64,000 bases of DNA from Candidatus Brennerbacteria bacterium (GCA_016183535.1 JACPEK010000004.1:141807-205806), one strand, 5' to 3'. Counted from the first letter of the stretch, positions 6,555 to 48,805 are shown. Notes: generated by a model from the letters alone, not told the origin. Program-made: numbers and translations.

Positions 6555-9500
6555 ATGAGTAAATCATTCAAAAAAATCGCGTCCATAGGGCTCTCCGTCT
6601 CAACGGCGGTGTACCTCTTTGGCGCCACGGCGATTCCGGCGGGCGCACAGTCCACCGCGGATCTCCAGGCCCAAATTGCGGCCCTCTTGGCGCAGATCAA
6701 CGCATTGCAAGCCCAACTCGCGGCGCAGACCGGCACTCCGGCGGCTCCGTCTTCGTACAGCTTCACCCGCTCCCTCACGGTGGGTTCGGTTGGCGATGAC
6801 GTGAAGGCGCTCCAGCAATGGCTGAACGCGAATGGGTACAAAGTTTCGGCGAGCGGCGCCGGTAGCCCCGGCAGCGAGACGCGGACCTTCGGTCCTGCGA
6901 CCCGCGCGGCCCTCGCCAAATACCAGGCGGCGGTGGGAATCTCCCCCGCGGCAGGGTATTTCGGTCCGGTCACGCGCGCGAAGCTCGCTTCGGCGGGCGG
7001 CACGCCTGTGACGCCGGGCACGACCCCTCCGGTCACGACGGTTCCCGCGGGTACTGACCTCGTGGTGTCCTTGGCGTCCGACACGCCCGCTTCGCGGACG
7101 ATCGGCTCCGGCACCGCGTTCAACCCTGCGGCGAAGTTTGCGTTGACCGCGGGTGCGAAAGCGGTGAAGATCACCGGCATCACAGTCGCGAAGAGCGGCT
7201 TCGTGGCAAACACGAACCTGAACGGCGTCGACATCGTCGACTCGAAGGGCGTGCGCCACGGCAACGTGGTGACCGGCGTGAACGCCGACAACACCGTCTT
7301 GATCACCATGACGACCGACCCCATCACCGTGGCGGCGGGTTCCACCGAGTACATTACGATTCGGTACAACCTCCTCTCGGGGAACTACACGGGGACGGTT
7401 TCTTTCGGTATCAACGCGGTTTCGGCGATCACCGCCGACACCTCGGCGATCTCGGGAGCGTTTCCGCTCTCGGGCGCCACGATGAACATCGTGAACGGCG
7501 GCTCGTCCTTGGCCTCAACGACCTTGGACGTGCTCACCTCCACGGGTTCGTCTTCCTTGAACGTAGATCCGAACAGCTTGCAGGAGATCACACGCTTCCG
7601 CATCCAGGAAACCTCCTCGAATGAGGGCGCGTACCTCCACTCGCTCTCGCTCTACAACTACGGGAACGCGGGCGACAAGGATTACAAGGACGTCACGCTC
7701 GAAGCCCAGGACGGCACGGTCCTCGCGACCGCCCAGCCCTCGGGCCAGTACGTGAAGTTCGCGCTCGCGACCCCCTACTTCATCGACAAAGGCCTCACGA
7801 AGGACTTTACAGTGAAGGCGAAGCTCGTCGACGGCACGACGAAGACGATCCAGCTCGTGGTTTACAACAACTACGACATCGATCTCCGCGGCGCGGCGAC
7901 CTCGGTCTCGGTCATTCCGGGCGCGGGCACGAACGACACTTCGTTCCCGATCGGTAACGGCTTCAACATCCAGACGATCGGCTCGGGCTCGATCACGCTC
8001 ACGCGTGCATCGGATTCCCCGTCGTCCGCGGTAACGCCGGGCGCGACGAGCATCGTGCTCGCGAAGTTCAACGCGAAGCCGACCGGCGAGGACTACGAGC
8101 TCCGGCAGGTCAGCTTCTACGTGGCCACCTCCTCGTCAGGCATCGACCTCACCGGCACGATCTTCGTGAAGGTGAATGGTGCGACGGTCTACAGCGTGGC
8201 GGCCTCGGACAGCTCAAACACGACGGCCTCGACCGTTACCCTCACGTCGTACCCCACGCTCACGCGCGGGACGAACAACGTGATCACGGTGGAAGGTTCC
8301 GTGAACTCGACCGCGACCACGGCCTCGAACTACACCGTTACGAACTTCGACCTCATCCAGGCGAAGCGTTTGGTGACGAACGATCTCGTGGATCCGGGCG
8401 TGGGGACCGTGAACGGTCTCCAGATTGCAGTGAACGCCGCGGTGCTCACCGTCACGACGCTCTCGACGCCGACCGCAAACTCGGTCGTCGCGGGAGTGGT
8501 TGGCTATGAGTACGCGACGATCCAGCTTTCGGCCGGATCGGGCGGCGAGGATGTGAAGGTGACGAAGATTGTGGTAACGCACGCGGGCGGCACCGCAGGC
8601 GAGGTGGGGAACCTCCTCCTCTACAAGGGCTCCGACGCGTCGCCACTCTCGACGACGGCCTCGACGGCGACGAACGCCGCGACCGTAACCTTCAATCTCT
8701 CGGATGCGCTCGTCGTAACGCGCGCGACACCGGTTACGCTCCACCTCAAGGCGGACGCGCTCTCCGGCACGGGTGCGCACACCTTCTCGGTCGCCTCATC
8801 TACCTCGGCGGTAACGGCGACGGGCTTGAACACCGGCAACACCTTGACGAACGGATCTGACATCACGTTCGCGGGCGTCGGCCAGGCGCAGACGCACGTG
8901 GCGGCGGGCACGCTCACGTTGTCCTTGGTTTCCGGCTCGGGCGCTTCGCCCTCGGCGGACCAGGTGATCACGGCGGGCACCTCGAACGCGGTGGTGTTTG
9001 CCTTCAAACTCACCTCGCAGTACGAGGCGCAGAAGATCACGAGCTTGAAGCTCACGGCGACAAGCTCGGGCTCGACCGGCATCGCGACCTCGACCCTGCA
9101 GAACGTCCGCCTCTATGAGGGGACGTCCGGCACGGCGATCTATCCGACGACGGCGTGGGCCTGCGTGGCCGCGGGTTGTACCGCGACGTGGGGCGGCTCG
9201 GGCGTCGACAACATCTTCTCGCAGGCGGTGCCGACGACCGGCATGACAGTCTACGCGAAGGCGGACGTCGCCGCGGGCGGCACGTCGGACCTCGGCAACA
9301 GCTACAAGTTCCTCATCGCGTCTTCGACAGGCGACGTCGCGGTGAAGGGCGTGTCGTCCGGCTCGACCTCGGGTACCCGCACGGGGACCCCGACGGCGTC
9401 CGGCTTCAGCTTTGTGGTGCCGCAGAACGTAACGATTACCGCGGTGGATCCCACGACCGCAACGGATCGCGGGACGAGCTCGGGCATCAACGTGGCGGTC

Positions 9501-9974
9501 TTCAAGGTGACGAACAACGGCACGGCGCCGATCCTCCTCTCGACCTCGACCTTGAGCTTCACGAATGGCGGCTCTGCCACCACGACGACAGCTTTCAAGA
9601 TCTACGCGTCGGCGGTGGGCGGCGGCTCGGCTGACACCTCCGGATGGAACAGCGGCAACGGGTATCTCTCGAGGGCGGGCGACACAGGCGCTTCCTCCAC
9701 GATCTCGTTTGCCACCACGACCATCACGGCGGCGGAGCAGAAGATCGACGGCGGTTCATGGCGGTACCTGACGATCAAGACCACGGCGGCATCGGCGAAC
9801 AACAACACGTACCAGTTCTCCGTGTCGGCATTGGGCAACATCTTGTTCAATGCGGCCGAGTCCGATCTCGGGTTCTCCGGGAACCCCTCGTCCGATTCCG
9901 ATCTCTCCGACACGAGCCTCGGTCTCTACGCGGACGGTTTGCCGTCACTGGCGACCATCACCGCGAAGAACTAG
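6555..9974 (+). CDS. Large secreted cell-surface protein with coiled coil, PG_binding_1-like peptidoglycan-binding domain and a >800-aa Ser/Thr/Ala/Gly-rich beta-rich region (S-layer/adhesin-like)
   Basis: Signal peptide present. Heptad-like segment LQAQIAALLAQINALQAQLAAQ. A peptidoglycan-binding motif reads VGDDVKALQQWLNANGY...FGPATRAALAKYQAAVGI. The rest is a long low-complexity T/S/A/G-rich stretch. Confidence 0.8.
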   Translation: MSKSFKKIASIGLSVSTAVYLFGATAIPAGAQSTADLQAQIAALLAQINALQAQLAAQTGTPAAPSSYSFTRSLTVGSVGDDVKALQQWLNANGYKVSASGAGSPGSETRTFGPATRAALAKYQAAVGISPAAGYFGPVTRAKLASAGGTPVTPGTTPPVTTVPAGTDLVVSLASDTPASRTIGSGTAFNPAAKFALTAGAKAVKITGITVAKSGFVANTNLNGVDIVDSKGVRHGNVVTGVNADNTVLITMTTDPITVAAGSTEYITIRYNLLSGNYTGTVSFGINAVSAITADTSAISGAFPLSGATMNIVNGGSSLASTTLDVLTSTGSSSLNVDPNSLQEITRFRIQETSSNEGAYLHSLSLYNYGNAGDKDYKDVTLEAQDGTVLATAQPSGQYVKFALATPYFIDKGLTKDFTVKAKLVDGTTKTIQLVVYNNYDIDLRGAATSVSVIPGAGTNDTSFPIGNGFNIQTIGSGSITLTRASDSPSSAVTPGATSIVLAKFNAKPTGEDYELRQVSFYVATSSSGIDLTGTIFVKVNGATVYSVAASDSSNTTASTVTLTSYPTLTRGTNNVITVEGSVNSTATTASNYTVTNFDLIQAKRLVTNDLVDPGVGTVNGLQIAVNAAVLTVTTLSTPTANSVVAGVVGYEYATIQLSAGSGGEDVKVTKIVVTHAGGTAGEVGNLLLYKGSDASPLSTTASTATNAATVTFNLSDALVVTRATPVTLHLKADALSGTGAHTFSVASSTSAVTATGLNTGNTLTNGSDITFAGVGQAQTHVAAGTLTLSLVSGSGASPSADQVITAGTSNAVVFAFKLTSQYEAQKITSLKLTATSSGSTGIATSTLQNVRLYEGTSGTAIYPTTAWACVAAGCTATWGGSGVDNIFSQAVPTTGMTVYAKADVAAGGTSDLGNSYKFLIASSTGDVAVKGVSSGSTSGTRTGTPTASGFSFVVPQNVTITAVDPTTATDRGTSSGINVAVFKVTNNGTAPILLSTSTLSFTNGGSATTTTAFKIYASAVGGGSADTSGWNSGNGYLSRAGDTGASSTISFATTTITAAEQKIDGGSWRYLTIKTTAASANNNTYQFSVSALGNILFNAAESDLGFSGNPSSDSDLSDTSLGLYADGLPSLATITAKN

Positions 9975-10097
9975 CTCGTTTCCGTAACTGGTTTCCCGAT
10001 AGCGCAAATCGGACAACCAAAATCCCCGGCTTCGGCCGGGGTTTTGGTTCGCGGATTTATGCAGATAACCGCGGATAGATATTGATGCCGTGGTACA

Positions 10098-11588
10098 ATG
10101 ATTCCAATGCCACTCCCATTCAAAGTTTCCAAATCCTTCCTGATTATCGCGGTGTTCTTCATCGCGATCGTCACCCCCTCCACGCTCTTCCCCTTCATCG
10201 TGGGGAAATACGTATGGTTTCGTGCGGCGGTGGATGTGGCGCTCCTCGTGTTCGCGCTTGGCTTTTTGTTTCATCCGCATCAATCGGCGGTCATCAGCAT
10301 TCATCAGCGGCTCGTCTCTCTCTATAAAAATCCGCTTGTGATCGCGGTATCAGCTTTCGTTGTGATATTTCTCCTCGCGGGATTTTTCGGTGTGGATCCC
10401 GCGATGTCTTTCTGGTCCAACTTCGAGCGGGGTGAGGGAGGAATACAAATCCTCCACCTCTATGTATTTTTTATGCTCCTCGCGGTGCTGTTCCGAGAGG
10501 AACATGATTGGCAAAAACTTTTTGCGTGCTCACTCGTGGCAGGGCTTTTTATGACGTTCTACGGGCTCGGCGCGGGACTCCGCTACACGGATGCCGAGCT
10601 TGCCACGCGCCACCTTCCCCAGGGCGGCGTCGAGGAGACCTTCACGGGGAAGGGCGGGCCGTGGTACCAGACTTTCAAGAGCTATATCGGCCCCTCTTTC
10701 AAAAGCGACGGATATCGCTTCCAAGGATCCATCGGGAATGCCGCCTACGTCGCCGCCTACGCTATTTTTATGCTCTTCTACGCGGCCTACCTCCTTGCGA
10801 CGAAATACCGCGCGCGGCTCCACTCGTTCGGGGCATTCGTGCTTTTCTTTCTTCTTGCGGTCTTCCTCGCGGTTTTCTGGTTCGCCGCGACTCGCGGCGC
10901 CTTCCTTGGTCTCGTGGGGGCCGTGCTTGCCTTCCTCGGATACTTCATCTACGCCCATAAAAAGTGGCGCCGATGGCTCCTCGCAGGCAGCGCCGTAGTA
11001 GTGATTATGGTCGGGCTTCTCGTGAGTTTTAAAGATGCTCCTTTTGTGAAAGCGATACCCGGCTCGCGTATTTTCGATCTCTCGTTCACCGCGGAGACGT
11101 TTCAGCACCGCACCATCATGTGGGGCATCGCGCTCGAGGGGTGGAAGGAGCGCCCGCTCCTCGGGTGGGGTCCGGAGAACTATATCCAGGTGTTCGACCG
11201 GCGTTTCGATCCCGCCTACTTTGAGCCGACGAAGGGGTTTGGGGCGTGGTTTGACCGGGCACACAGCATCTACTTCGACTATCTCGTGGAAACCGGCGCG
11301 CTCGGCATTGTAAGTTTCCTCGCGATATTCGTAGTGCTCTACCGCTATCTTTTCCGTTCTCTGAAGCGGGAGAACGGAGATGCGCCAACGCAGGAGGGTC
11401 ATCGTGGGAAGGAAACGCCCCCCGCCTTTCGGGCGCTTCCCTCGGCGCTCGCGTTTGCGCTCCCGGTTGCCTACCTCATCCAGGGCATCGTGCTTTTCGA
11501 CGTGCTCCCCATCTACGTGAACGTGTTTCTTTTCCTCGCGTTCATGGTGTATCGGATGGTCGAACGGCCCCTCGCGCCAAAGGCATAG
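10098..11588 (+). CDS. Wzy_C-family polytopic membrane protein (O-antigen ligase WaaL / O-oligosaccharyltransferase PglL / WsaB-like)
   Basis: 496 aa with about 10-12 TM helices. A large loop carries RTIMWGIALEGWKERPLLGWGPENY. A Wzy_C-like motif reads AHSIYFDYLVETGALG. Confidence 0.7.
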   Translation: MIPMPLPFKVSKSFLIIAVFFIAIVTPSTLFPFIVGKYVWFRAAVDVALLVFALGFLFHPHQSAVISIHQRLVSLYKNPLVIAVSAFVVIFLLAGFFGVDPAMSFWSNFERGEGGIQILHLYVFFMLLAVLFREEHDWQKLFACSLVAGLFMTFYGLGAGLRYTDAELATRHLPQGGVEETFTGKGGPWYQTFKSYIGPSFKSDGYRFQGSIGNAAYVAAYAIFMLFYAAYLLATKYRARLHSFGAFVLFFLLAVFLAVFWFAATRGAFLGLVGAVLAFLGYFIYAHKKWRRWLLAGSAVVVIMVGLLVSFKDAPFVKAIPGSRIFDLSFTAETFQHRTIMWGIALEGWKERPLLGWGPENYIQVFDRRFDPAYFEPTKGFGAWFDRAHSIYFDYLVETGALGIVSFLAIFVVLYRYLFRSLKRENGDAPTQEGHRGKETPPAFRALPSALAFALPVAYLIQGIVLFDVLPIYVNVFLFLAFMVYRMVERPLAPKA

Positions 11589-11660: not shown

Positions 11661-12230
11661 ATGTCAAAAGCGGTTATAAAAAATTCGGCAATGGTCACGT
11701 TTGTGATACTCGCCGCGCTCGCGCTCATTTTCGGCGCGTATCTGCCGTTTATAAAAGCGCGGGGTTATATCACTTCCATCAACACGCTTGCCTCGGTGAA
11801 TTCGCTTGAATCGTTCTACGCGCATTTCGATCGCCTCCTCCTTCACCCGTCTCCCGTCGGCCAGGAAGAGGCGGTAAAGTACCTCGGGAGCGACATTGCA
11901 AATTTTATCTCCGCGGAGGACCAGCCGGAGCCGGTCGCCCGCGCGATTGTCGCGTATCTCGAGCCGTACCTTTTCCGTAATAACGTGCGTCATCTTCTTA
12001 TGGGTGGCCAGTTCTATGAGACATTATGGAGACGCTTTGGCCAGCAGGAAGCGGACTTGAGAAGCGCCGAAGCATATTACCTCGCCGCGCGCGCGATTGG
12101 GCCCAAGCTCCCACCCGTGCTCTATTCGCTCTACGATCTCTACGGAACGTCGGAACAGCTCGAGAAACGCGCCGAGGTGCGCGACGCGATCATCCGCCTT
12201 TGGCCGGAGGAAGTAAATCGCCTTGAATAG
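11661..12230 (+). CDS. Hypothetical N-terminally membrane-anchored protein
   Basis: 189 aa with a single N-terminal TM helix. No recognisable motifs. Confidence 0.45.
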   Translation: MSKAVIKNSAMVTFVILAALALIFGAYLPFIKARGYITSINTLASVNSLESFYAHFDRLLLHPSPVGQEEAVKYLGSDIANFISAEDQPEPVARAIVAYLEPYLFRNNVRHLLMGGQFYETLWRRFGQQEADLRSAEAYYLAARAIGPKLPPVLYSLYDLYGTSEQLEKRAEVRDAIIRLWPEEVNRLE

Positions 12231-12247: not shown

Positions 12248-13303
12248 ATGAAGATACTTTTTCTAACCACAGACTTGAAAAATTTCGGAGGAATTCAGCA
12301 GTACAATCGGCAGTTACTGCGGGTACTATCTGAGCAAAACGAAAATGTATTCGTGCTTGAACGGAAAAGCGGTTTTTGGGGCAAGATGAAATTTACTGTG
12401 GGTGTCTTTTTTTATGCATGGCGGGATCGACCGGATGTTATTTTTTGCGGACACATAAATTTTTCTCCGCTCGCGTTGGTTTTATTCAAGCTTAAGAATC
12501 AGAGGTTTGTGGTATTTGTTCATGGAGTGGACGCGTGGGATATTCACGGCACATGGCGGCGCGTTGCGCTGGAGAAGGCAGAAAAGGTGGTAACGGTTTC
12601 CTGGTATACCGCGGAGAAAGTTATCCATCAACTGCCGGGCGTAAAAGAACGTTTTTTTATAATTCCCAATAGTGTCGACGGCAAAAAATTTTTTATAAAG
12701 GAGAAACCTCGTTACCTATTTGAAAGGCACGGTATATCGGATACAAAAATTATCCTTACCGTTTCCCGTCTTTCGAAAGTAGAAGCCGGTTTTAAGGGGT
12801 ACGATAGGGTTATCGAATCGTTACCCCGGATTTCGGCGGCTGTACCTAACGTGAAGTATGTATTGGTCGGCGGAGGAGACGATATGCCGCGAATTCGGGA
12901 ATTGGTGAAAAATTTGAAACTAGAAACACAAGTAATTCTCGCAGGCAAAGTGGGGGGAGAGGAACTCATTGATTATTACAATCTCGCGGATGTATTTGTC
13001 ATGCCGTCCAAGTGCGAAGGATTCGGCATTGTTTTCCTGGAAGCGCTCGCGTGCGGGCTCCCGGTTATTGCGGGGAATCGCGATGCTTCTCCTGAAACGC
13101 TTTTGCAGGGGAAGCTCGGCTTTTTGGTGGATCCGGATAATAAGGAAGAAATTGCGGATGCGGTAGTCGGCGTTCTTAATAAAAAATCCTCCTCCCGCTT
13201 ATTAGATCGAGAACATTTGCGGTGGGAAACATTGAAGCATTATGGGCGGGAAAAATTTGATGAAAGGGTGAAATTATTTCTTCATGAAAATCTTCGAAAA
13301 TAA
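12248..13303 (+). CDS. Glycosyltransferase family 4 (GT-B, retaining)
   Basis: C-terminal EX7E-type region reads PSKCEGFGIVFLEALACGLPVIAG. Confidence 0.85.
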   Translation: MKILFLTTDLKNFGGIQQYNRQLLRVLSEQNENVFVLERKSGFWGKMKFTVGVFFYAWRDRPDVIFCGHINFSPLALVLFKLKNQRFVVFVHGVDAWDIHGTWRRVALEKAEKVVTVSWYTAEKVIHQLPGVKERFFIIPNSVDGKKFFIKEKPRYLFERHGISDTKIILTVSRLSKVEAGFKGYDRVIESLPRISAAVPNVKYVLVGGGDDMPRIRELVKNLKLETQVILAGKVGGEELIDYYNLADVFVMPSKCEGFGIVFLEALACGLPVIAGNRDASPETLLQGKLGFLVDPDNKEEIADAVVGVLNKKSSSRLLDREHLRWETLKHYGREKFDERVKLFLHENLRK

Positions 13304-14159
13304 AATTTCCAAGGCGGCCATAACACAGGAGGAAAATTACCGCTGGTGGAATGACAATCCCATGCGATACGATTGGGGAGAGAGAATACCCTTTCCCGAG
13401 TTTAGTAGGGAATTTTTCAACGAGATTGATAGGCGCTTCTTCCTGAATTCAAAAGAATACCTCCCGTGGAAGGCGATTCCCTTCGATCGGCTCATTGATT
13501 TCGCGGCGTTGAAGGATAAGGAGGTATTAGAGATTGGTGTCGGCAATGGAAGCCATGCGCAACTGTTGGCGGCGCACGCCAAGTCTTTCACTGGCATCGA
13601 CCTCACCGAGTATGCGGTCAAAAGTACCGCGGAGAGGTTCAAGGTTTTTGGTTTGCCCGGAATAATCATCCGTATGGACGCGGAGCGCCTGTCGTTCCCG
13701 GATAATAGCTTTGATCTGGTATGGTCGTGGGGCGTGATCCATCACTCCTCCGACACAAAGAAGATCCTGAAAGAAATCAGGCGCGTGTTGAAGCCGGGCG
13801 GAACCGCGTCCATTATGGTCTACCATCGCGGTTGGTGGAATTATTACGTGATGGGGTTCCTTCGCGCGCTTATATTCGGGGATCTGGTGAAGGGCAGATC
13901 GCTCTTTGAAAGTATTCAACGGTTCACTGACGGCGCCATTGCGAGATATTACCGCCGTTCGGACTGGAAGGAATTGAACGAGCCGATGTTCAGCGTGCGC
14001 GACATCTTTATTCTCGGACCGAAAAGTGATTTTATACCTTTGTCCGCGGGAGCGTTGAAAGATATCATTACAAAATACATTCCGAACTCGCTCGCTCGGT
14101 TGCTCACCGAGAAGTTTAAAATGGGCGTTTTTCTCTACTCGACCCTTCAGAAACCATGA
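13284..14159 (+). CDS. Class I SAM-dependent methyltransferase
   Basis: Motif I reads VLEIGVGNGSHAQLL. The post-I acidic residue is in GIDLTE. Motif III reads VLKPGGTASIMV. Confidence 0.8.
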   Translation: MKIFENKISKAAITQEENYRWWNDNPMRYDWGERIPFPEFSREFFNEIDRRFFLNSKEYLPWKAIPFDRLIDFAALKDKEVLEIGVGNGSHAQLLAAHAKSFTGIDLTEYAVKSTAERFKVFGLPGIIIRMDAERLSFPDNSFDLVWSWGVIHHSSDTKKILKEIRRVLKPGGTASIMVYHRGWWNYYVMGFLRALIFGDLVKGRSLFESIQRFTDGAIARYYRRSDWKELNEPMFSVRDIFILGPKSDFIPLSAGALKDIITKYIPNSLARLLTEKFKMGVFLYSTLQKP

Positions 14160-17054: not shown

Positions 17055-17060
17055 TATAAT

Positions 17061-18128: not shown

Positions 18129-18140
18129 AAATCTGCGAGG

Positions 18141-19922: not shown

Positions 19923-19963
19923 ATTTGTTGTACGGTTATATGGTAATTGTGTTCCCGCATATC

Positions 19964-33382: not shown

Positions 33383-33386
33383 CGTG

Positions 33387-34451: not shown

Positions 34452-34453
34452 CA

Positions 34454-36784: not shown

Positions 36785-36831
36785 GGTTTCGTTTTGTTGA
36801 CGGACGCCCTCGTGCATAATAGATTTAAGCA

Positions 36832-37518: not shown

Positions 37519-37586
37519 ACATTCGAGAGCGCTGGCATAGGAAGGGGTTCAACTGCAAATAGCGCTTGGAAGGCGCTATTAGCGTT

Positions 37587-39502: not shown

Positions 39503-39504
39503 AC

Positions 39505-40725: not shown

Positions 40726-41468
40726 ACCTCCCCCACGCGCTCGAGAGCGTAAAGCCGCTCGACGCGAAGGTATGGGTGGTGGATTCTGGCTCAACAGATA
40801 ACACGGAAAAAATAACGAGATTACACGGAGCCGAATTCGTTTCCCACACCGATTATCAAAACCAGGCCCAGCAGTTCAACTGGGCGTTGGATCACCTTCC
40901 CCTCAAAGGGGAGTGGGTCTTGCGGTTGGATGCGGACGAATGGCTCACACCGGAACTCGCGAAGGAAATAATGCAGAAAATCACCTCAATTCAAAGCGGG
41001 GTGAATGGATTCTATATGAAACGCCGCATGTATTTTATGGGACGGTGGATATGTCATGGGGGATATTATCCGACATGGATACTGCGTCTCTTTCGCCGCG
41101 GGAAGGGACGTTCAGAGGAAAGGGAAATGGACGAACATGTCGTACTTTCGGAAGGGTGTGCAGAGCGTTTGAAAAACGATTTCGCGGACGAGAACAGGAA
41201 ATCGCTTCCCGAGTGGCTTGCGAAACATCGGGATTACGCGGTACGGGAAGCACGGGCCGCGCTCCGCGGGCACATTTCGGATACGCGGAAGCTCAAGAAA
41301 TCTTTCTACTATTTCCTGCCGCCCTTTGTCCGTCCTGTTCTTTTTTTCATCTATCGCTATTTCTTCCGTCTCGGTTTTTTGGACGGCATCGCGGGCCTCA
41401 AGTTCCATTTTCTCCAGGGGCTGTGGTACCGTTGGCTTGTCGATAGGGAGATCGTGAAGCGGCGATAA
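40677..41468 (+). CDS. Glycosyltransferase family 2
   Basis: Contains IDTVILTKDEEVNLPHALESV...VWVVDSGSTDNT and RLDADE (DxD). Confidence 0.8.
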   Translation: MASKIDTVILTKDEEVNLPHALESVKPLDAKVWVVDSGSTDNTEKITRLHGAEFVSHTDYQNQAQQFNWALDHLPLKGEWVLRLDADEWLTPELAKEIMQKITSIQSGVNGFYMKRRMYFMGRWICHGGYYPTWILRLFRRGKGRSEEREMDEHVVLSEGCAERLKNDFADENRKSLPEWLAKHRDYAVREARAALRGHISDTRKLKKSFYYFLPPFVRPVLFFIYRYFFRLGFLDGIAGLKFHFLQGLWYRWLVDREIVKRR

Positions 41469-41470
41469 GT

Positions 41471-42442
41471 ATGAACAACTCTATTAGTGCCGTTGTTACG
41501 GTTTATAACAAACAGGAGACCATTGCTAAAACATTGGAATCTTTGTTATCCCAACCCGCGGAGCTCAAGGAAGTAATTGTCATAGATGATGGAAGTACCG
41601 ATAGTTCGGCTGAGATAGTAAAGAAATTCGCGGAGAGGTATAACAATATAAAATATATTTTCCAAAACAATCAGGGGGTGGCTCGATCGTTGAACGCGGG
41701 GTTAAGAATAGTCAACACTGATTTTGTCGCCGTGCTCGATGGAGATGTCACGCTGAGCGAAGATTGGTTCCCCGCATTAATGTCGTATTTTGGAAACCAA
41801 GAGATCGCGGCGGTTTCCGGTTTGACAAAGACAATGAACCCAAAAAATCTTTGGGCCGCATTAGCCGGTTATAACGTGGAATATCGGCAATCAAGAATAA
41901 AGGGCGAGTTCGTTGATCACCTGAGCACCACCAACGTTATCTATAGAAAATCCGTTTTGGATACCGTCGGCTTGTTTGATCCAGAGTTCAGGTATGGCCA
42001 GGATAACGAAGTGAGTTACGGGATCTTAGCGGCCGGTTACAAATTAATTCTTTCCAAGAAAGCTTTCTGCCTCCATTTTTGGCCGGAAAGCTTTATGGGC
42101 TTTATGAAACAACGGTCTCATGGCGCGTGGGCCAGAGCCATGTTGATCAAGAAATATCCGAAGCGATTGAGCGGAGATAAGATTTCCAGCCTGCGTTATT
42201 TTTTGGAATTACCACTAGGACTGGCCCTCCTCTTATCTTTGATCGCCATTTTGTTTTATCCGTATTTTTCGATTGTGGCGGGACTCGTTGCTATCTTAAT
42301 TTACATTTTTCAATGGAGCGAAATCCTTTTTTTCATTAAAAACAAAAAAACGCTCATTGGGATTTTCGCGCCTGTTTTCATCGCGCTAAAAGCCATGGCG
42401 TGGCAGAGCGGAATTATTAAATTTTACTTGGAGGGGCTATGA
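41471..42442 (+). CDS. Glycosyltransferase family 2 with C-terminal TM helices
   Basis: Contains ISAVVTVYNKQETI...VIVIDDGSTDSS and VLDGDV. Confidence 0.8.
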   Translation: MNNSISAVVTVYNKQETIAKTLESLLSQPAELKEVIVIDDGSTDSSAEIVKKFAERYNNIKYIFQNNQGVARSLNAGLRIVNTDFVAVLDGDVTLSEDWFPALMSYFGNQEIAAVSGLTKTMNPKNLWAALAGYNVEYRQSRIKGEFVDHLSTTNVIYRKSVLDTVGLFDPEFRYGQDNEVSYGILAAGYKLILSKKAFCLHFWPESFMGFMKQRSHGAWARAMLIKKYPKRLSGDKISSLRYFLELPLGLALLLSLIAILFYPYFSIVAGLVAILIYIFQWSEILFFIKNKKTLIGIFAPVFIALKAMAWQSGIIKFYLEGL

Positions 42443-44083
42443 ATAATTCTCCCCTTCGAAGTACTTCGAGAATTCTTTTTTAGCTCTGGCATACCTATCG
42501 CCCCAGCCCTTTGCGCGTTGCAGCTTTTCTTCCAGGTCAAGCATGATTTTTGTGGATGTAATAACGGAATCGATCGAGTCGCCCGGTTCGTTATTTGCGA
42601 TTTTCCGCGCGATAGTTTTGTACATATCCTTGTAGCTTGTGGGCTTTAGCACCTTTTCTTTTCTTATAATTCGCTTGGTGTCTTCGGAGGTATAGTGAGT
42701 AGCATCCAAAATTCTCACGATCTTCCCTGTTACTTTTAATTCAACGACATCTTTGGGGCCGATGCGCGGGCTGCCCTTTTCGCTGAAAGTGGAAGTTAAG
42801 GTGGCGCCGTTTTCCAATTCTATCCATGTCACGATGGTATTATCGCTGAGAAGCTTGAGGTCAAAATCCTTCGGTTTACTGAAGTTATTGAGATACAAGA
42901 AGTGATCGATCTGATGGCAGGCGTTCGCGTAAAAAGTGCTACGGGAAACCGGCCAGTTGTACCAGAAAAATTCCGGCTGCTTTAATTCGTAGACAATAGA
43001 GTTGTAGAAGATCGGTTCCCCATGCCGCACCCCCAGGTCTTTCAGGGCCCACTTGTTGAAGGGGCCATAACGTTTTTGAAAGCCGATAAAGAGACGCGGA
43101 CCCGATTTCTTGAGCGCTGCTTCCAACTCATCCAATTCCTCGTAATCGTTCACTGCCGGCTTCTCCACCAGGGCGTACGCGCCTTGATTCAAGGCGTGAA
43201 TGGCCAAAAGCGCGTGAAAATGATTGTAGGTTGCTATGAAATACGCGTCTGCTTTTTCCCCCTTTCGCGGGATAGGAGAAGAATCCCACTTTTGAATTCT
43301 TTGCTCCAAAAATATTTCAGTAGGGTCAATCTCGTGGACCGTTTGTATATCCACGAAGGGGCGAGTGTAGGGAATGATATTGATCTTGGCGTAGTTGCCG
43401 TAGCCGAACAAAATTCCGGTTTTTTTGCCACCTTCTGCCTTAGGAAGAGAACCTTTTGTTTCCGAGATGGGCTTGGGGTCCAAGGCATCAATCGCTTCTG
43501 CCCCAGCCCAGTGAGCGTTTTTAAGTTCTTTGACTAGGCAGTCTGATATTTTTTTCTGGATTTCGGGAGAAACAGCCACGCCGGAATAAACGCTCCAAGC
43601 GAGAAGGTCTTTCCACCAACCACCCTCCGTTTTTTGGCCGGAGACCGGCAAATGGAGGATTTTATTGGCGTGGGGTTGAGGCAGATCGGAACGATCAATT
43701 TTTAAAATGAGATTCTCAGGCAAAACAATTCTTTCCGCAAGAGCCGGATGCCAAGGCGCCAAAAAGCCGACCAAGTCCCCCACAGAAAAACTGCCATCCT
43801 GGGCGGTTTCAATGATCTCTCCAAAACCGCAAGAAATATATTTTTCATTCCGATAATCCTCGCGGAGCCGCGACCAGGTCTTGTAAAACGTCCCCTCAAG
43901 CCCCATTACGGGAAAGTAGTTCAAGAGCAGGCGCAAACTCTTCGGCCGTATATGGTATACGTTTTCCAGCTTTTCTAAGTTTTTGAAACCCAAAACTTTT
44001 ACCCGATATTCCTTTCGGTTTTTGGGATAATCCACAAAACCATCCCGCCATTTTTTATTGGCTAAAATTCTCATATTCACCAA
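42437..44083 (-). CDS. Bi-domain oxidoreductase: Gfo/Idh/MocA-type NAD(P)-binding Rossmann domain plus extra domain
   Basis: The central region reads GILFGYGNYAKINIIP...FIATYNHFHALLAIHALNQGAYALVEKP (GFO_IDH_MocA pattern). AT-richer sequence. Confidence 0.65.
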   Translation of the reverse strand: MVNMRILANKKWRDGFVDYPKNRKEYRVKVLGFKNLEKLENVYHIRPKSLRLLLNYFPVMGLEGTFYKTWSRLREDYRNEKYISCGFGEIIETAQDGSFSVGDLVGFLAPWHPALAERIVLPENLILKIDRSDLPQPHANKILHLPVSGQKTEGGWWKDLLAWSVYSGVAVSPEIQKKISDCLVKELKNAHWAGAEAIDALDPKPISETKGSLPKAEGGKKTGILFGYGNYAKINIIPYTRPFVDIQTVHEIDPTEIFLEQRIQKWDSSPIPRKGEKADAYFIATYNHFHALLAIHALNQGAYALVEKPAVNDYEELDELEAALKKSGPRLFIGFQKRYGPFNKWALKDLGVRHGEPIFYNSIVYELKQPEFFWYNWPVSRSTFYANACHQIDHFLYLNNFSKPKDFDLKLLSDNTIVTWIELENGATLTSTFSEKGSPRIGPKDVVELKVTGKIVRILDATHYTSEDTKRIIRKEKVLKPTSYKDMYKTIARKIANNEPGDSIDSVITSTKIMLDLEEKLQRAKGWGDRYARAKKEFSKYFEGENYS

Positions 44084-44148: not shown

Positions 44149-46008
44149 TCATCCGAACCAGCGGTCGTACCACAAAGAAAGCGTGATGAGGTTCCACAGT
44201 TTGAAACTTTGGTCCGGTTTTCCACTGCGGTGTATGCGGAACAAGTTACGCGCCTGTTCATAATCCAGCAGGCCCGTATTCTTAAGCTTCGATGCCATCA
44301 CCATATTCTCCATCTGTTTCGAGAGAGGAGATTCAGTCCGGAGCCACTCGGAAATCGGCGTGCCGAAACCCCGCTTCTTCCGCGCGATTGTCTCGCGGGG
44401 GATAATGCCCTCCACCGCCTTTTTGAGGACGTATTTAGTCGTTCCACCTTTCAGTTTGATATCTTGGGGCGTATTGAATGCGAGCTCCACGAGGCGCGTA
44501 TCAAGGAACGGGACGCGTCCTTCTACGGAATGTGCCATGGTCATCCGCTCCGCGCGTGCGAGAAGAAATTCCGGCAGGCGATGCTTCAGCTCTACATAGG
44601 TCATTTGCTTCAAGAGGTCCGCGCGTGCATCCCTATTTTCTAATTCGCGGTACCAACTCTCCACGATATCGGAGCTTTTTCCGCGGTCTCCAAATGCGGT
44701 CGCGAGCCCCCAAAACGGCCTCCCGCCTGCGATCATACGTCGCGCAAACTCCTTTCGGGGGCCTTCAGCAAGGAATGCGAGACCGAGGTTTGCTATGCCG
44801 CGTACGTGCTTTAGCCAGCCCCACCGCTCCTGTGCGCGGAGCGCCCTGAGGTAGACTTCATATCCCGCAAAGAGTTCATCGGAGCCCTCGCCGATCTGTA
44901 CCACGGTGACGCCCGAGTCGCGCGTGAATTTCGAGAGCCAGAATATGGGGAACGAGGCGGGGTCGCCGTTCGGATCGTCAAAATGATGCGCGTAACGCTC
45001 CAGGAAATCGGCAAAGTGCGATTCACCGAGAAGAAGTTCGTGCGGTACTATACCGAGCGATTTGGCGGTCTCACGCGAATGTGCAAACTCGTTCATTGTG
45101 GGGAAATCCCGGTATCCCACGGAGAACGTTTCCACAGGGTGGCCGAGTGCTTCACTCATCAACTTTGCGTTCGTGGACGAATCAATGCCGCCGGAGAGGA
45201 AGCAACCGAAGGGAACGTCGGAGACCATCTGGCGGCGGATGGAGTCGCGGAGAAAGAAGCGGACTTCTTCGATGTATTCTGCTTCTGTCGAAGGCCCGCC
45301 CGCATCCCTACGCGAAGCGTTGCGGGCGGGATTCCAATACTCAATTTCGTTCACGGCGCCGTCTTTTGTGATCGTGAGCGAATGTCCCGCGGTGAGTTTT
45401 CGGATGCCGCGGAAAAGCGTGCGCGGAGCGGGAGTCGAGGAAAAGGTAAGATAGTGGGAAAGCGTTTCTTCGTCGAGCTCGCGCGGTACGTCGGGGTGGG
45501 CGAGAATTGCTTTGATTTCGGAGCCGAAATAGAAACTGCCGTTCTGGAGCGCGTAGTAAAACGGCTTGATGCCCATGTGATCGCGCACGGCGAATAGCAG
45601 TTCCCTTTTTTTATCCCAAATTACGAACGCAAACATGCCATTCAGGCGTTTTACGAAATCGGGACCCCAGGCGAGATAGGCGTTCAAGATCACTTCAGTA
45701 TCGCCTTTCGATTTGAACGAGTAACCAAGCGTCTTGAGCTCTTCCCGCAAGTCTTGGAAGTTGTAAATCTCGCCGTTGTAGGTGATCCACGCGCGCCCCG
45801 AGGCGTCCGTCATCGGCATGTGGCCGGCGGGCGAAAGGTCGATGATCTTCAAGCGGCGCGTGCCGAGTCCCACCTTGCGATCGGGAGAGAGATAAATCCC
45901 CGCGTCGTCGGGGCCGCGATGGACGAGCGTGTCGCGCATCGCGACGAGCGTCCGCTCGTCGGCAGTCTTGGAATTTTTATAGTGATAGACGCCGGCGATG
46001 CCGCACAT
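44149..46008 (-). CDS. Asparagine synthase (glutamine-hydrolysing) family amidotransferase (AsnB/WbpS-like)
   Basis: MCGIAG provides the N-terminal nucleophile Cys2. The PP-loop reads FLSGGIDSS. 619 aa. Confidence 0.9.
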   Translation of the reverse strand: MCGIAGVYHYKNSKTADERTLVAMRDTLVHRGPDDAGIYLSPDRKVGLGTRRLKIIDLSPAGHMPMTDASGRAWITYNGEIYNFQDLREELKTLGYSFKSKGDTEVILNAYLAWGPDFVKRLNGMFAFVIWDKKRELLFAVRDHMGIKPFYYALQNGSFYFGSEIKAILAHPDVPRELDEETLSHYLTFSSTPAPRTLFRGIRKLTAGHSLTITKDGAVNEIEYWNPARNASRRDAGGPSTEAEYIEEVRFFLRDSIRRQMVSDVPFGCFLSGGIDSSTNAKLMSEALGHPVETFSVGYRDFPTMNEFAHSRETAKSLGIVPHELLLGESHFADFLERYAHHFDDPNGDPASFPIFWLSKFTRDSGVTVVQIGEGSDELFAGYEVYLRALRAQERWGWLKHVRGIANLGLAFLAEGPRKEFARRMIAGGRPFWGLATAFGDRGKSSDIVESWYRELENRDARADLLKQMTYVELKHRLPEFLLARAERMTMAHSVEGRVPFLDTRLVELAFNTPQDIKLKGGTTKYVLKKAVEGIIPRETIARKKRGFGTPISEWLRTESPLSKQMENMVMASKLKNTGLLDYEQARNLFRIHRSGKPDQSFKLWNLITLSLWYDRWFG

Positions 46009-47491: not shown

Positions 47492-48805
47492 TTATGAATG
47501 ATTCATGAAAAAATATCGGATCGTTTTGAGGATAATGAGGAGGTCGAGAAAGAGCGAGCGGTTCTTCACGTAGTAGAGGTCGTACTTCAGTTTCTCGTAC
47601 GCCTCCTCGAGCGACGCGGACGGCTGGTAGTTGATCTGCGCCCAGCCGGTCAAGCCCGGTTTCACCACGTGGCGCATTTCGTAGTGAGAAAACCTCTCGT
47701 ATTCCCGCGTGAGCCCCACGTTCTCGGGGCGGGGGCCGGTGAATGAAATGTCGCCGCGGATGATGTTCCAAAGCTGGGGAAATTCGTCCAGATGGGTTGC
47801 GCGGAGGAACGTACCAATCGGCGTGATGCGGGCGTCGTTCTTTTCCGTCCAGAGCGGGCCGCCATTCCCGTTCCTCATCGTGCGGAACTTGTTCAATATG
47901 AACGAGCGGCCGCCTTTCCCCGTGCGTTCCGCACGATAGAGTGCCCCGCCGCGGGAAGTGGCGACAATGAAGATTCCGATGAGGAAGGAAAGCGGGAGCG
48001 TGACCGCAAAAAGTATGGTAGCGAGTGTCACGTCAATGACGCGCTTCACGCGGTCGTACACTGGCCGGCGCGCCGTGATGTTCTCTATAAACCATTCCTC
48101 CGAAAGGTCTTCGAGCGGCACTTTTTCGAACACGGCCTCATAGAATGCGGCGAAGGGAATAACGTTCACTTCGTGCGGGATGATGCGGTAGATTTGGCGC
48201 GCCGCGCGAGCGTCGTGCGCGAGCGCGGGATCAATGACGAGAAGCGCCACGTTCCCGGCGTTTGCGAGCGACTCGAGCATGCTTCCGTTCGCGCCCTTGA
48301 GCGTCTCGTAGTGTTGCGCAACGCGGTACCCAAGGTGGGGTGTGCGGCGCACTTCCTCGATGAGCTCGGTGATGCGCGGGGAAGTTCCCACAAACACGAC
48401 CGGGATCGCGCTTGCTTTGAAACGGACACGAAGGAGCGTTCTCCATGCATAGGAGAGAACGACGGTGAATCCCACGAACATCGCGAGGTTCGTTTTTGGT
48501 GTGAGTTCAAAATAGTCCGGAAAAAGATAGAAAGCGCCCATAGAGACGATGCCGGCGGTGATGGCCGCGACCGCGACCGCGCGGAAGAGTATGAGGGAGG
48601 AGAGGAACGTCCGAAGGTGGTAAAGATCGAAGAGATAGAAAACAAGGAGAAAGACGGTGAATATAAGTAAGAACGGCCCTTTGTGGCCGGCGAATGCGAA
48701 AGAGAACCCGCTTGTTCCATAACGGACGAGAAGCGCTCCCGCGAGCGCCGCATAGAGAATTACGATGTCTCCCGCGAAGAGAAGCCCCTTTTTCCAGCCG
48801 GACAT
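47492..48805 (-). CDS. Initiating polyprenyl-phosphate hexose-1-phosphate transferase (WbaP/CpsE/WsaP-like bacterial sugar transferase)
   Basis: N-terminal TM helices. The C-terminal catalytic domain reads KRVIDVTLA...RGGALYRAERTGKGGRSFILNKFRTM...DEFPQLWNIIRGDISFTGPRP. Confidence 0.85.
   Translation of the reverse strand: MSGWKKGLLFAGDIVILYAALAGALLVRYGTSGFSFAFAGHKGPFLLIFTVFLLVFYLFDLYHLRTFLSSLILFRAVAVAAITAGIVSMGAFYLFPDYFELTPKTNLAMFVGFTVVLSYAWRTLLRVRFKASAIPVVFVGTSPRITELIEEVRRTPHLGYRVAQHYETLKGANGSMLESLANAGNVALLVIDPALAHDARAARQIYRIIPHEVNVIPFAAFYEAVFEKVPLEDLSEEWFIENITARRPVYDRVKRVIDVTLATILFAVTLPLSFLIGIFIVATSRGGALYRAERTGKGGRSFILNKFRTMRNGNGGPLWTEKNDARITPIGTFLRATHLDEFPQLWNIIRGDISFTGPRPENVGLTREYERFSHYEMRHVVKPGLTGWAQINYQPSASLEEAYEKLKYDLYYVKNRSLFLDLLIILKTIRYFFMNHS

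What the first reader, a model, noticed from the sequence alone, without database searches (positions are those of the whole stretch)
6555..48805. Surface protein, then a Wzy_C ligase/OTase homologue, then a ~36 kb glycan island: candidate S-layer or general protein O-glycosylation locus
Seen in sequence. A 1139-aa exported protein has a coiled coil, a PG_binding_1-like domain and >800 aa of Ser/Thr-rich sequence. It is followed immediately by a 496-aa polytopic Wzy_C-family protein (the WaaL/PglL/WsaB type). A contiguous island follows with 8 GTs, 6 MTases, sugar-nucleotide enzymes, a Wzx flippase and a WbaP/WsaP-type initiating phosphoglycosyltransferase. Established knowledge: in Geobacillus stearothermophilus and Paenibacillus the S-layer structural gene is directly followed by the slg cluster. 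That cluster includes a Wzy_C O-oligosaccharyltransferase (WsaB) and a WbaP-like initiating enzyme (WsaP). Neisseria and Acinetobacter PglL are also Wzy_C proteins. Inference: the same logic applies here, with the Ser/Thr-rich surface protein as the acceptor. No LPS core or lipid A genes are present, which favours protein (or teichoic-like) glycosylation over classical O-antigen ligation.
Basis: partly seen in the sequence, partly recalled or inferred. Interest (0 to 1): 0.7.

Follow-up and report, generated by a model that had tools for sequence, protein, structure and literature searches.

The report
Patescibacterial S-layer protein glycosylation locus
In an uncultivated ultra-small bacterium (Candidatus Brennerbacteria), the gene for what looks like its main surface-coat protein sits next to a two-part enzyme that probably attaches sugars to it and a 36 kb sugar-building gene cluster. 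Part or all of this arrangement recurs in hundreds of related species and has not been described for this group.

Summary
The window comes from a Candidatus Brennerbacteria (Patescibacteria/CPR) genome.

- **Surface protein (6555-9974).** It has a signal peptide, a coiled coil, a PG_binding_1 anchor, two disordered Thr/Pro/Gly linkers and a ~970-aa all-beta body. It has the strongest codon bias in the window and its own terminator. Its body is conserved across Patescibacterial classes while the N-terminal anchor swaps (PG_binding_1, SLH, other). That is the behaviour of an S-layer protein.
- **Wzy_C protein (10098-11588).** It is a 12-TM protein whose only solved structural relative is the WaaL ligase. 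It belongs to a Patescibacteria-specific family found in at least 552 species genomes.
- **Missed partner (11661-12230).** This 189-aa protein is a membrane-anchored TPR-like protein. It follows the Wzy_C gene in 77 of 80 loci and is fused to it in some genomes. The known S-layer O-oligosaccharyltransferases show the same split or fused layout (WsaA+WsaB, WsfB).
- **Glycan genes.** Close relatives keep the surface protein, Wzy_C and TPR genes at 77-90% identity but carry different downstream glycan genes. This argues for a ligase rather than a repeat-unit polymerase.
- **Limit.** Adjacency to the surface protein holds in about half of the related loci. The other half have RNase Y upstream instead.

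Verdict: a new member of a known kind, of moderate interest.

The parts
6555..9974 (+). Candidate S-layer protein (SURF, 1139 aa). Signal peptide aa 1-33, coiled-coil helix aa 34-58, Thr/Ser/Pro/Ala linker aa ~53-66, PG_binding_1 anchor aa 70-147, Thr/Pro/Gly linker aa 148-161, all-beta body aa 169-1139.
6996..7037 (+). Disordered Thr/Pro/Gly-rich linker (aa 148-161) between the anchor and the body. Together with linker aa ~53-66 (6711-6752), it is the most plausible O-glycosylation site.
   Evidence: pLDDT below 50. In 61 homologues the linker varies widely in sequence and length but is always rich in T, G, V, P, A and S (T 20%, G 18%, P 10%). The acceptor role is inferred.
10024..10041 (+). 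Intrinsic-terminator-like hairpin (CCCCGGC-TTCG-GCCGGGG followed by TTTTGGTT) between the SURF stop codon and the Wzy_C start codon.
   Evidence: Seven G-C pairs followed by a T-run. This suggests SURF is mainly a separate, strongly terminated transcript.
10098..11588 (+). Wzy_C-family 12-TM enzyme. Proposed catalytic subunit of an O-oligosaccharyltransferase (ligase type).
11661..12230 (+). 189-aa partner protein with one N-terminal TM helix (aa ~10-28) and a helical TPR-like domain placed outside the membrane. Proposed acceptor-binding subunit.
   Evidence: Directly downstream of Wzy_C in 77 of 80 loci. It is 63% identical to residues 514-684 of the fused protein P0006 and 51% identical to residues 463-631 of P0055. 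The P0055 tail passes Pfam TPR_19 (25.9 bits against 25). 13 of 71 homologues carry precomputed TPR hits, and one is named 'tetratricopeptide repeat protein'. The window protein itself has no Pfam hit.
12248..19397 (+). Proximal glycan genes: GT4, two methyltransferases, GT4, GT1_2-like, dTDP-glucose-4,6-dehydratase-like, RfbH-like PLP enzyme.
   Evidence: RfbH scores 395.5 bits against a cut-off of 423, and the dehydratase TIGR01181 scores 322 against 365. GT4a, GT4b and GT1_2 are partly shared with close relatives at 31-47% identity.
19760..37518 (+). Sugar-modification block. It holds an epimerase/dehydratase, two split transketolase pairs (20791-22664 and 26467-28166), GT2, a methyltransferase, an aldo-keto reductase, an RmlC-like enzyme, an SDR and two KedN5-like B12-radical-SAM C-methyltransferases (29268-33382). 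It also holds HddA-like kinase, epimerase, HddC-like nucleotidyltransferase and GmhB-like phosphatase genes (33210-36784) and a CmcI-like methyltransferase.
   Evidence: GC is 0.48-0.54, below the 0.58-0.60 backbone.
37566..42442 (+). Distal transferases: a methyltransferase, two GT4 and two GT2.
42437..44083 (-). 548-aa soluble protein with a partial GFO/IDH/MocA Rossmann motif. Role unknown.
   Evidence: No TM segments, so it is not a Wzy candidate.
44149..46008 (-). Asparagine-synthase-type amidotransferase. An asparagine synthase homologue, wsfA, is also listed in the Paenibacillus alvei slg locus.
   Evidence: TIGR01536 at 497.9 bits. A homologue lies within a few genes of the TPR gene in 15 of 80 loci. 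wsfA is listed in PMC2943079.
46013..47488 (-). Wzx/MOP flippase (12 TM).
   Evidence: Polysacc_synt at 140 bits. 12 TM segments.
47492..48805 (-). Initiating polyprenyl-phosphate glycosylphosphotransferase (large WbaP/WcaJ/WsaP type).
   Evidence: Bac_transf at 191.6 bits. TIGR03025 at 308.6 bits against 295.55.

Best explanation
The locus encodes a surface-layer glycoprotein system of a monoderm-like Patescibacterium.

**Proposed mechanism**
1. The phosphoglycosyltransferase (47492-48805) starts a glycan on undecaprenyl phosphate.
2. Eight glycosyltransferases and a large set of sugar-nucleotide and methylation enzymes extend and decorate it on the cytoplasmic face.
3. Wzx (46013-47488) flips it to the outside.
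4. A two-part O-oligosaccharyltransferase transfers it en bloc from undecaprenyl diphosphate. The parts are the 12-TM Wzy_C catalytic subunit (10098-11588) and a membrane-anchored external TPR-like subunit (11661-12230).
5. The acceptor is Ser, Thr or Tyr of the abundant, peptidoglycan-anchored surface protein encoded just upstream (6555-9974). The two disordered Thr/Pro-rich linkers are the most likely sites. Other exported proteins may also be glycosylated.

**Shown:** gene identities, the fold, the split/fused TPR partnership, the conserved synteny, the anchor swapping, the codon bias, and the variability of the glycan genes.

**Inferred:** that the acceptor is a protein, that it is this particular protein, that the TPR domain binds it, and that the surface protein forms a lattice.
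For: 2. **TPR partner.** The 189-aa neighbour follows the Wzy_C gene in 77 of 80 loci and is fused to its C-terminus in several genomes. The fused tail passes Pfam TPR_19. The S-layer O-OTase literature describes the same pattern. WsfB and PglL carry a C-terminal TPR. WsaB lacks one, but the adjacent wsaA encodes a 168-aa TPR protein. An asparagine synthase homologue (wsfA) is listed in the P. alvei slg locus (PMC2943079).
3. **Ligase-like evolution.** In L083, SURF is 90.5% identical, Wzy_C 80% and the TPR partner 77%, while shared downstream GTs are only 27-47% identical and other genes differ (radical SAM, GT9). L082 shows the same pattern.
4. **S-layer-like surface protein.** It has a signal peptide and a PG_binding_1 anchor. 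The body is conserved at 40-90% across Paceibacteria, Magasanikbacteria and Peregrinibacteria, with anchors swapped to SLH or other modules. Composition is T, A, S and G rich with only two Cys. Codon bias is the strongest in the window (Nc 33.9). It has its own terminator. Cryo-EM of a Parcubacterium shows an apparent S-layer whose protein has not been identified (10.1101/2022.04.20.488981).
5. **Adjacency recurs.** 37 of 80 loci have SURF upstream on the same strand, 11 of them directly. In a Magasanikbacteria locus with a different upstream backbone, a SURF homologue is followed directly by a 674-aa Wzy_C+TPR fusion and a glycan cluster.
6. **Complete donor pathway.** A PGT and Wzx are present, and the Wzy_C protein is the only remaining polytopic candidate for the final step.
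Against: - No experiment or proteomic data show that SURF is glycosylated.
- In 25 of 80 loci the Wzy_C/TPR pair follows RNase Y, with no SURF homologue within 10 kb. The enzyme is therefore tied more tightly to the glycan cluster than to SURF. I could not check whether those genomes encode SURF elsewhere.
- Much of the SURF adjacency lies inside a conserved SIMPL-HtrA-ClpB-...-SURF backbone and could partly reflect inherited gene order.
- In 13 loci a second, larger Wzy_C+TPR paralogue sits between SURF and the small Wzy_C. It could be the SURF-specific enzyme. This window lacks it.
- A terminator separates SURF from the Wzy_C gene.
- The window's 189-aa protein has no Pfam TPR hit of its own.
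- The closest solved structure is a lipid-directed ligase (WaaL), not a protein O-OTase. No O-OTase or Wzy structure turned up for comparison.
Confidence: 0.55

Rival explanations
1. The Wzy_C/TPR pair is a general protein O-oligosaccharyltransferase like Neisseria PglL. Its main targets are other exported proteins such as type IV pilins, and the neighbouring surface protein is not a special substrate.
For: The enzyme pair is near-universal in the sampled Paceibacteria-type loci, whether or not SURF is adjacent: 25 RNase-Y-type loci have no SURF within 10 kb. A terminator separates SURF from the enzyme gene. PglL-type enzymes are known to be promiscuous (own knowledge; PMC2943079 cites this).
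Against: SURF-then-Wzy_C/TPR adjacency recurs in a Magasanikbacteria locus with a different backbone. L085 has a TM-anchored TPR gene directly after its SURF homologue. SURF has conserved disordered Thr/Pro linkers of the kind such enzymes target. No recognised pilin gene lies in the window.
Confidence: 0.15
2. The Wzy_C protein is a WaaL-like ligase that transfers the glycan to a non-protein acceptor, either a membrane glycolipid or peptidoglycan. The product would be a secondary cell-wall polymer, and the TPR subunit would act as a scaffold.
For: WaaL, a lipid-directed ligase, is the only solved structural match. The enzyme is linked to glycan clusters in nearly all loci but to SURF in only about half. 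S-layer proteins often need a wall polymer as an anchor (for Firmicutes).
Against: SURF here anchors through PG_binding_1, which binds peptidoglycan itself. An external TPR partner, split or fused, is the feature described for protein O-OTases (WsfB, PglL, WsaA/WsaB). To my knowledge WaaL does not have one. No lipid A or core genes are in the window.
Confidence: 0.15
3. The Wzy_C protein is the Wzy repeat-unit polymerase of a Wzx/Wzy-dependent capsule or wall polysaccharide. The 189-aa protein modulates chain length.
For: The island has Wzx and a PGT but no other polytopic protein that could be a Wzy. Pfam Wzy_C also covers some polymerases.
Against: The protein stays 50-80% identical across genomes whose glycan genes differ, which is unlike repeat-unit-specific polymerases. 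No Wzz-family protein appears in any Pfam scan of the window. Some related loci carry extra unannotated 8-11-TM proteins in the variable part that could be their own Wzy. Eight GTs could build a long single oligosaccharide without polymerisation.
Confidence: 0.1

Closest known systems
S-layer glycosylation (slg) loci of Geobacillus stearothermophilus NRS 2004/3a (sgsE; wsaA-wsaB...wsaP) and Paenibacillus alvei CCM 2051T (spaA; wsfA, wsfB...), as reviewed in PMC2943079
   Same: A surface-protein gene lies next to the cluster. The predicted O-OTase contains Wzy_C. The TPR element sits either on a small adjacent protein (WsaA, 168 aa, compared with 189 aa here) or is fused C-terminally (WsfB, compared with fused orthologues such as P0006 and P0055). 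The initiating enzyme is of the WsaP/WbaP type. An asparagine-synthase homologue is in the locus (wsfA). The cluster has lower GC than the chromosome.
   Different: The host is a Patescibacterium, not a Firmicute. Here the TPR gene lies downstream of the enzyme gene, not upstream. The anchor is PG_binding_1 rather than SLH. Export uses Wzx, whereas G. stearothermophilus uses an ABC transporter. The locus position is conserved across hundreds of species, with a variable cassette.
Neisseria PglL and Pseudomonas PilO (TfpO) O-oligosaccharyltransferases
   Same: They have a Wzy_C domain and a polytopic topology. They transfer en bloc from Und-PP-glycan with relaxed donor specificity. PglL is reported to have a C-terminal TPR motif. 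PilO is encoded next to its acceptor gene pilA (own knowledge).
   Different: Those hosts are diderm Proteobacteria. There was no detectable sequence match beyond the Pfam domain. NCBIfam gives only sub-threshold hits, to IctB (53.7 against 366) and PEP_O_lig_1 (33.4 against 188).
WaaL O-antigen ligase (Cupriavidus metallidurans, PDB 7TPG/7TPJ)
   Different: Sequence identity is 14-16%. A profile search of PDB sequences found nothing. The lipid A-core acceptor pathway is absent from the window and not expected in this phylum. To my knowledge WaaL has no TPR partner.
TIGR03097 (PEP_O_lig_1), named a putative O-glycosylation ligase associated with the exosortase A system
   Same: It is a Wzy_C-family protein that NCBIfam names a putative O-glycosylation ligase.
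   Different: The score is 33.4 bits against a cut-off of 188.1, so this protein is not a member. There are no exosortase or PEP-CTERM genes in the window.

Membership tests
Wzy_C superfamily (PF04932; WaaL, PglL, WsaB and some Wzy) | Pfam Wzy_C domain above the gathering threshold | tested here: met
   59.7 bits against a cut-off of 31.7, aa 252-408.
Wzy_C superfamily (PF04932; WaaL, PglL, WsaB and some Wzy) | About 12 TM helices, with a large external loop before the last three helices that carries conserved Arg and His residues | tested here: met
Protein O-oligosaccharyltransferase of the PglL/WsaB/WsfB type | TPR element, either C-terminal or on an adjacent small protein | tested here: met
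   The 189-aa neighbour is homologous (51-63% identity) to the C-terminal tails of fused orthologues, one of which passes Pfam TPR_19. The feature itself is as described in PMC2943079. The window protein alone has no Pfam TPR hit.
Protein O-oligosaccharyltransferase of the PglL/WsaB/WsfB type | Genetic linkage to the acceptor protein gene | tested here: inconclusive
   Linkage is present in this window, in 37 of 80 related loci and in a Magasanikbacteria locus. It is absent in 25 RNase-Y-type loci. Part of the adjacency may reflect a conserved backbone.
Protein O-oligosaccharyltransferase of the PglL/WsaB/WsfB type | Und-PP-linked donor pathway (initiating PGT plus flippase or ABC exporter) in the same locus | tested here: met
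   Bac_transf/TIGR03025 PGT and Wzx.
Protein O-oligosaccharyltransferase of the PglL/WsaB/WsfB type | Sequence orthology to a characterised O-OTase | not tested
   Sequences of WsaB, WsfB, PglL and PilO could not be obtained with these tools. No NCBIfam model is matched above its cut-off.
Protein O-oligosaccharyltransferase of the PglL/WsaB/WsfB type | Demonstrated en bloc glycan transfer to Ser, Thr or Tyr of a protein | not testable with these tools
   Requires glycoproteomics or reconstitution.
WaaL (LPS O-antigen ligase) | Lipid A-core acceptor pathway present in the organism | tested here: inconclusive
   There are none in the 64 kb window. The rest of the genome could not be searched. 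The organism is a Patescibacterium, and CPR groups with monoderm lineages.
Wzy repeat-unit polymerase | Sequence co-varies with the repeat-unit gene set, with high divergence between serotypes | tested here: not met
   80% identity in L083 and 65% in L082 despite different downstream glycan genes. Identity is 50-60% across candidate phyla.
Wzy repeat-unit polymerase | Wzz/PCP co-polymerase in the locus | tested here: not met
   No Wzz hit in any Pfam scan of the window.
S-layer protein | Secreted protein with a modular cell-wall anchor plus a conserved self-assembly body, where the anchor can be exchanged between lineages | tested here: met
   Signal peptide and PG_binding_1 here. SLH x3 in the Peregrinibacteria homologue P0208 (96.7 bits). 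Other N-terminal modules in P0206 and P0220. The body is 42-45% identical.
S-layer protein | Very high expression | tested here: inconclusive
   Only indirect evidence: the strongest codon bias in the window (Nc 33.9, GC3 0.86) and its own terminator. No expression data.
S-layer protein | Forms a two-dimensional lattice on the cell | not testable with these tools
IctB (TIGR00947) and PEP_O_lig_1 (TIGR03097) | Score above the curated NCBIfam cut-off | tested here: not met
   53.7 against 366.4, and 33.4 against 188.1.

The most novel reading that the evidence does not exclude
The 1100-1200-aa protein family is the so-far unidentified S-layer protein of Patescibacteria. It is shared across classes with interchangeable wall anchors. 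The Wzy_C plus TM-TPR enzyme is its dedicated O-glycosylation machine. The hypervariable, low-GC glycan cassette downstream gives each lineage a different sugar coat, a serotype-like system that could govern host attachment and phage recognition in these obligate episymbionts.
Probability: 0.35. Interest if true: 0.7.

Novelty: new member of a known kind. Interest (0 to 1): 0.55.

Why it matters
Patescibacteria (CPR) make up a large share of bacterial diversity and are mostly uncultivated. They are thought to live attached to host cells. Cryo-EM shows an S-layer-like coat on them, but in the literature I could search no protein or glycosylation system has been assigned to it.

This locus offers concrete candidates that can be tested by sequence-guided experiments:
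- a conserved coat protein;
- a two-part O-oligosaccharyltransferase found in at least 552 species genomes;
- a fixed chromosomal site where very different glycan cassettes are plugged in.

If confirmed, it would extend the S-layer glycosylation model from Firmicutes to CPR. It would give markers for surface 'serotyping' of CPR in metagenomes. It could also supply new relaxed-specificity O-OTases and unusual sugar chemistry for glycoengineering (split transketolases, B12-radical-SAM C-methylation, 3,6-dideoxyhexose-like and heptose-like pathways).

Tried and rejected
- **PDB sequence search.** A profile of the Wzy_C family found no relative at E<=10. Only fold comparison found WaaL.
- **NCBIfam.** It gave only far sub-threshold hits for the Wzy_C protein and none for the 189-aa protein.
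- **afdb50 fold library.** It was unavailable. I could not compare the model with predicted PglL, WsaB or Wzy structures.
- **Promoter scan.** No sigma-70-like promoter was found upstream of SURF. The scan may not suit this phylum.
- **Rfam.** Only the two tRNAs were found. There is no known RNA element in the 457-nt region upstream of SURF.
- **Literature.** Four searches found no prior description of this family, or of any CPR S-layer protein or O-OTase. The useful hits were the S-layer glycome review and a Nealsonbacteria cryo-EM note.
- **Unexplained ORFs.** I considered that ORFs at 48832-51020 and 53529-54119 might encode pilins or other acceptors. They are Arg-rich antisense artefacts of DsbA-like, TrxB-like and Pth genes.
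- **GFO-like protein as hidden Wzy.** The 548-aa protein has no TM segments, so I rejected this.
- **ClpB versus Wzy_C identity.** The correlation across loci was weak (r = 0.29, n = 26) and is not used as evidence.
- **Magasanikbacteria fusion.** It could not be assigned to the 'small' or 'big' paralogue group, being roughly equidistant from both.

Full report
**Observation.**
- 6555-9974 (+) encodes a 1139-aa protein with a signal-peptide-like N-terminus, a helix at aa 34-58 and PG_binding_1 at aa 80-144.
- 10098-11588 (+) encodes a 496-aa, 12-TM protein with Wzy_C at 59.7 bits against a cut-off of 31.7.
- From 12248 to 42442 (+) and 42437 to 48805 (-) lie eight glycosyltransferases, five class-I methyltransferases and two B12-radical-SAM C-methyltransferases. 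The same stretch holds many sugar-nucleotide enzymes, a Wzx flippase and a large WbaP/WcaJ-type phosphoglycosyltransferase.
- The flanks are housekeeping genes: SIMPL, HtrA and ClpB upstream; DsbA-like, TrxB-like, Pth, signal peptidase, HisRS, FtsA and FtsZ downstream.
- The inner island has GC 0.46-0.54, against 0.58-0.60 for the backbone.

**Source.**
The identical Wzy_C protein is deposited as a Candidatus Brennerbacteria MAG protein. The window matches a Logan assembly contig from SRR12113420. Patescibacteria/CPR group with monoderm lineages (10.1101/2020.07.15.205187). A classical LPS ligase role is therefore unlikely, although I could not search the rest of the genome.

**The Wzy_C protein.**
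- Homologues are 50-60% identical across Jorgensen-, Nomura-, Wolfe-, Brennerbacteria and other Paceibacteria.
- A pattern scan of one genome per species found at least 552 genomes with a relative.
- Alignments show many invariant residues: K37, the SNFERGEGG motif, R207, T265-R266-G267, R324, R338, GWGPEN and D386-R387-A-H389. From the hydropathy profile and the AF2 helices, I place all of these in extracytoplasmic loops of a protein with both termini inside the cell.
- The AF2 model is confident (pLDDT 89, pTM 0.91).
- A sequence-profile search of the PDB found nothing. NCBIfam hits are far below their cut-offs. This is a distinct, unnamed subfamily.

**The missed partner.**
The 189-aa ORF at 11661-12230 has no Pfam hit, but several lines tie it to the Wzy_C protein.
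- A homologue lies directly downstream of the Wzy_C gene in 77 of 80 fetched loci.
- In several genomes the two genes are fused. The window protein is 63% identical to residues 514-684 of the 685-aa P0006 and 51% identical to residues 463-631 of P0055.
- The P0055 tail passes Pfam TPR_19. Thirteen of 71 stand-alone homologues carry TPR hits.
- The fusion point follows TM12, whose end I place in the cytoplasm. The partner begins with its own TM helix. The TPR-like domain should therefore sit outside, on the same side as the catalytic loop. This placement is an inference.
- The S-layer glycome review describes the same pattern for known S-layer O-OTases. WsfB and PglL carry a C-terminal TPR. WsaB lacks one, but the adjacent wsaA encodes a 168-aa TPR protein. 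The review also lists an asparagine-synthase homologue, wsfA, in the P. alvei locus (PMC2943079). An AsnB-type gene is in this island (44149-46008), and one lies near the TPR gene in 15 of 80 loci.

**The surface protein.**
- The AF2 model (pLDDT 84.8) shows a signal peptide, a helix, a disordered linker, a three-helix PG-binding domain, a second disordered linker (aa 148-161) and then an all-beta region from aa 169 to 1139.
- There are 787 homologues. The ~950-aa body is conserved at 40-90% identity and the total length stays near 1100-1250 aa. The N-terminal module changes: PG_binding_1 in Paceibacteria, three SLH domains in a Peregrinibacteria protein, and unrelated modules in Magasanikbacteria and others.
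- Composition is rich in T, A, S and G, with two conserved Cys.
- The gene has the strongest codon bias in the window (Nc 33.9, GC3 0.86, against 42-56 and 0.45-0.73).
- A seven-GC-pair hairpin with a T-run follows the gene.
- Both linkers vary widely in sequence but are always Thr/Gly/Pro/Ser/Ala-rich.
- Together these point to an abundant, wall-anchored coat protein. Cryo-EM of a Parcubacterium shows an apparent S-layer that has not been assigned to a protein (10.1101/2022.04.20.488981).

**Synteny.** Counts are from 80 loci.

| Upstream context of the small Wzy_C gene | Loci |
|---|---|
| SURF directly upstream | 11 |
| SURF, then a larger Wzy_C+TPR paralogue (750-920 aa, ~28% identity), then the small Wzy_C | 13 |
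| SURF upstream with other genes between | 13 |
| RNase Y directly upstream, no SURF within 10 kb | 25 |
| Other | 8 |
| Too little upstream sequence | 10 |

- The SURF-type loci share a SIMPL-HtrA-ClpB-(7-TM protein)-SURF backbone. Part of the adjacency could therefore be inherited gene order.
- Against that, a Magasanikbacteria contig has a different upstream backbone (sigma factor, DUF5667). There a SURF homologue (42% identity in the body) is followed directly by a 674-aa Wzy_C+TPR fusion (30% identity) and a glycan cluster.
- Another lineage has a TM-anchored TPR gene right after its SURF homologue.

**Ligase versus polymerase.**
- L083 keeps SURF at 90.5%, Wzy_C at 80% and the TPR partner at 77% identity. 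L082 keeps them at 81%, 65% and 63%.
- Their downstream genes differ from the window's, for example a radical SAM enzyme, GT9 and Methyltransf_21. The shared GTs are only 27-47% identical.
- That pattern fits an enzyme that recognises a constant acceptor and the lipid-linked end of the donor. It does not fit a repeat-unit-specific Wzy.
- No Wzz-family protein is present. No other polytopic protein in the island could serve as ligase or polymerase.
- Some related loci carry extra PMT_2-type GT-C proteins and unannotated 8-11-TM proteins in the variable part.

**Mechanism proposed.**
The PGT primes undecaprenyl phosphate. The GTs and modifying enzymes then build a heavily modified oligosaccharide. 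The modifying set includes an RfbH-like enzyme, a dTDP-glucose dehydratase-like enzyme and HddA/GmhB/HddC-like heptose enzymes. It also includes two split transketolases, two KedN5-like C-methyltransferases and five O/N-methyltransferases. Wzx flips the product. The Wzy_C/TPR pair then transfers it to the surface protein, probably on its linkers.

My confidence estimates:
- transfer to the neighbouring surface protein: 0.55;
- a general O-OTase with other main targets: 0.15;
- a ligase to a lipid or peptidoglycan acceptor: 0.15;
- a polymerase: 0.10.

**Novelty.**
The logic matches Firmicute slg loci, so this is a new member of a known kind. Three things are new:
- the phylum;
- the size and conservation of the enzyme family, and its fixed chromosomal site with variable cassettes;
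- a candidate identity for the Patescibacterial S-layer protein.

I found no prior description in the searchable literature.

Noticed in passing
window 60143-63060: tRNA-Lys (60143-60218, -) and tRNA-Asn (61372-61446, +) are followed by a 542-aa large serine recombinase (61432-63060, -). GC drops to 0.42 here, against ~0.59 for the backbone. This looks like the edge of an integrated mobile element at tRNA-Asn.
   Followed up: no
window 18141-36784: The glycan island has unusual sugar chemistry. It holds an RfbH-like 3-dehydrase (395 bits, just under the cut-off) and two separate split transketolase N/C pairs. It also holds two KedN5-family B12-radical-SAM C-methyltransferases and an HddA/GmhB/HddC-like heptose set without an obvious GmhA isomerase. 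Together these suggest branched or C-methylated deoxy and heptose sugars.
   Followed up: partly
window 5348-6097 (+): A 249-aa, 7-TM protein with no Pfam hit sits between ClpB and the surface-protein gene. Weak homologues hold the same position in 9 related loci and in L082 (44% identity). Function unknown.
   Followed up: partly
L023:7613-9988, L039:7035-9806 and 11 other loci: Many relatives carry a second, larger Wzy_C paralogue (750-920 aa, ~28% identity). It has a fused TM plus a multi-repeat TPR domain and lies between the surface-protein gene and the small Wzy_C gene. This window lacks it. It may be a second O-OTase with a different acceptor or donor.
   Followed up: partly
L085:13772-16965: In a distant Patescibacterium the SURF homologue is followed by a 239-aa TM-anchored TPR protein and two secreted Thr/Ala-rich proteins, one with a long (TP)n run. 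No Wzy_C gene is adjacent.
   Followed up: no
L083:4072-4362: A 96-aa GIY-YIG domain ORF is inserted between the surface-protein gene and the Wzy_C gene in the closest relative (80% identity). It is possibly a homing-endonuclease-like insertion.
   Followed up: no
window 48832-49467, 49920-51020, 53529-54119: These long Arg-rich ORFs look like antisense artefacts of the high-GC DNA. The real genes on the opposite strand are DsbA-like (48901-49725), thioredoxin-reductase-like (50106-51062) and peptidyl-tRNA hydrolase (53502-54116).
   Followed up: yes
window 51932-53497 (+): A 521-aa protein with a single TM segment near aa 361-379 and no Pfam hit. It lies next to small unannotated ORFs at 51049-51935. 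Unknown function.
   Followed up: no
L027, L054 and many loci titled 'uncultured Candidatus Saccharibacteria': Several records carrying this Paceibacteria-type gene pair are labelled Nanoarchaeota archaeon, Gammaproteobacteria or Saccharibacteria. These are probably binning or labelling errors rather than true occurrences outside the group.
   Followed up: no
L016:12445-14058, L024:14970-16715, L059:14371-16167, L068:13056-14543: PMT_2-type (GT-C) polytopic glycosyltransferases occur in the variable glycan clusters of several related loci. This hints at extra sugar additions on the outer face. L025 and L033 have unannotated 8-11-TM proteins of 405-417 aa that could be cluster-specific Wzy or Wzx.
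   Followed up: partly
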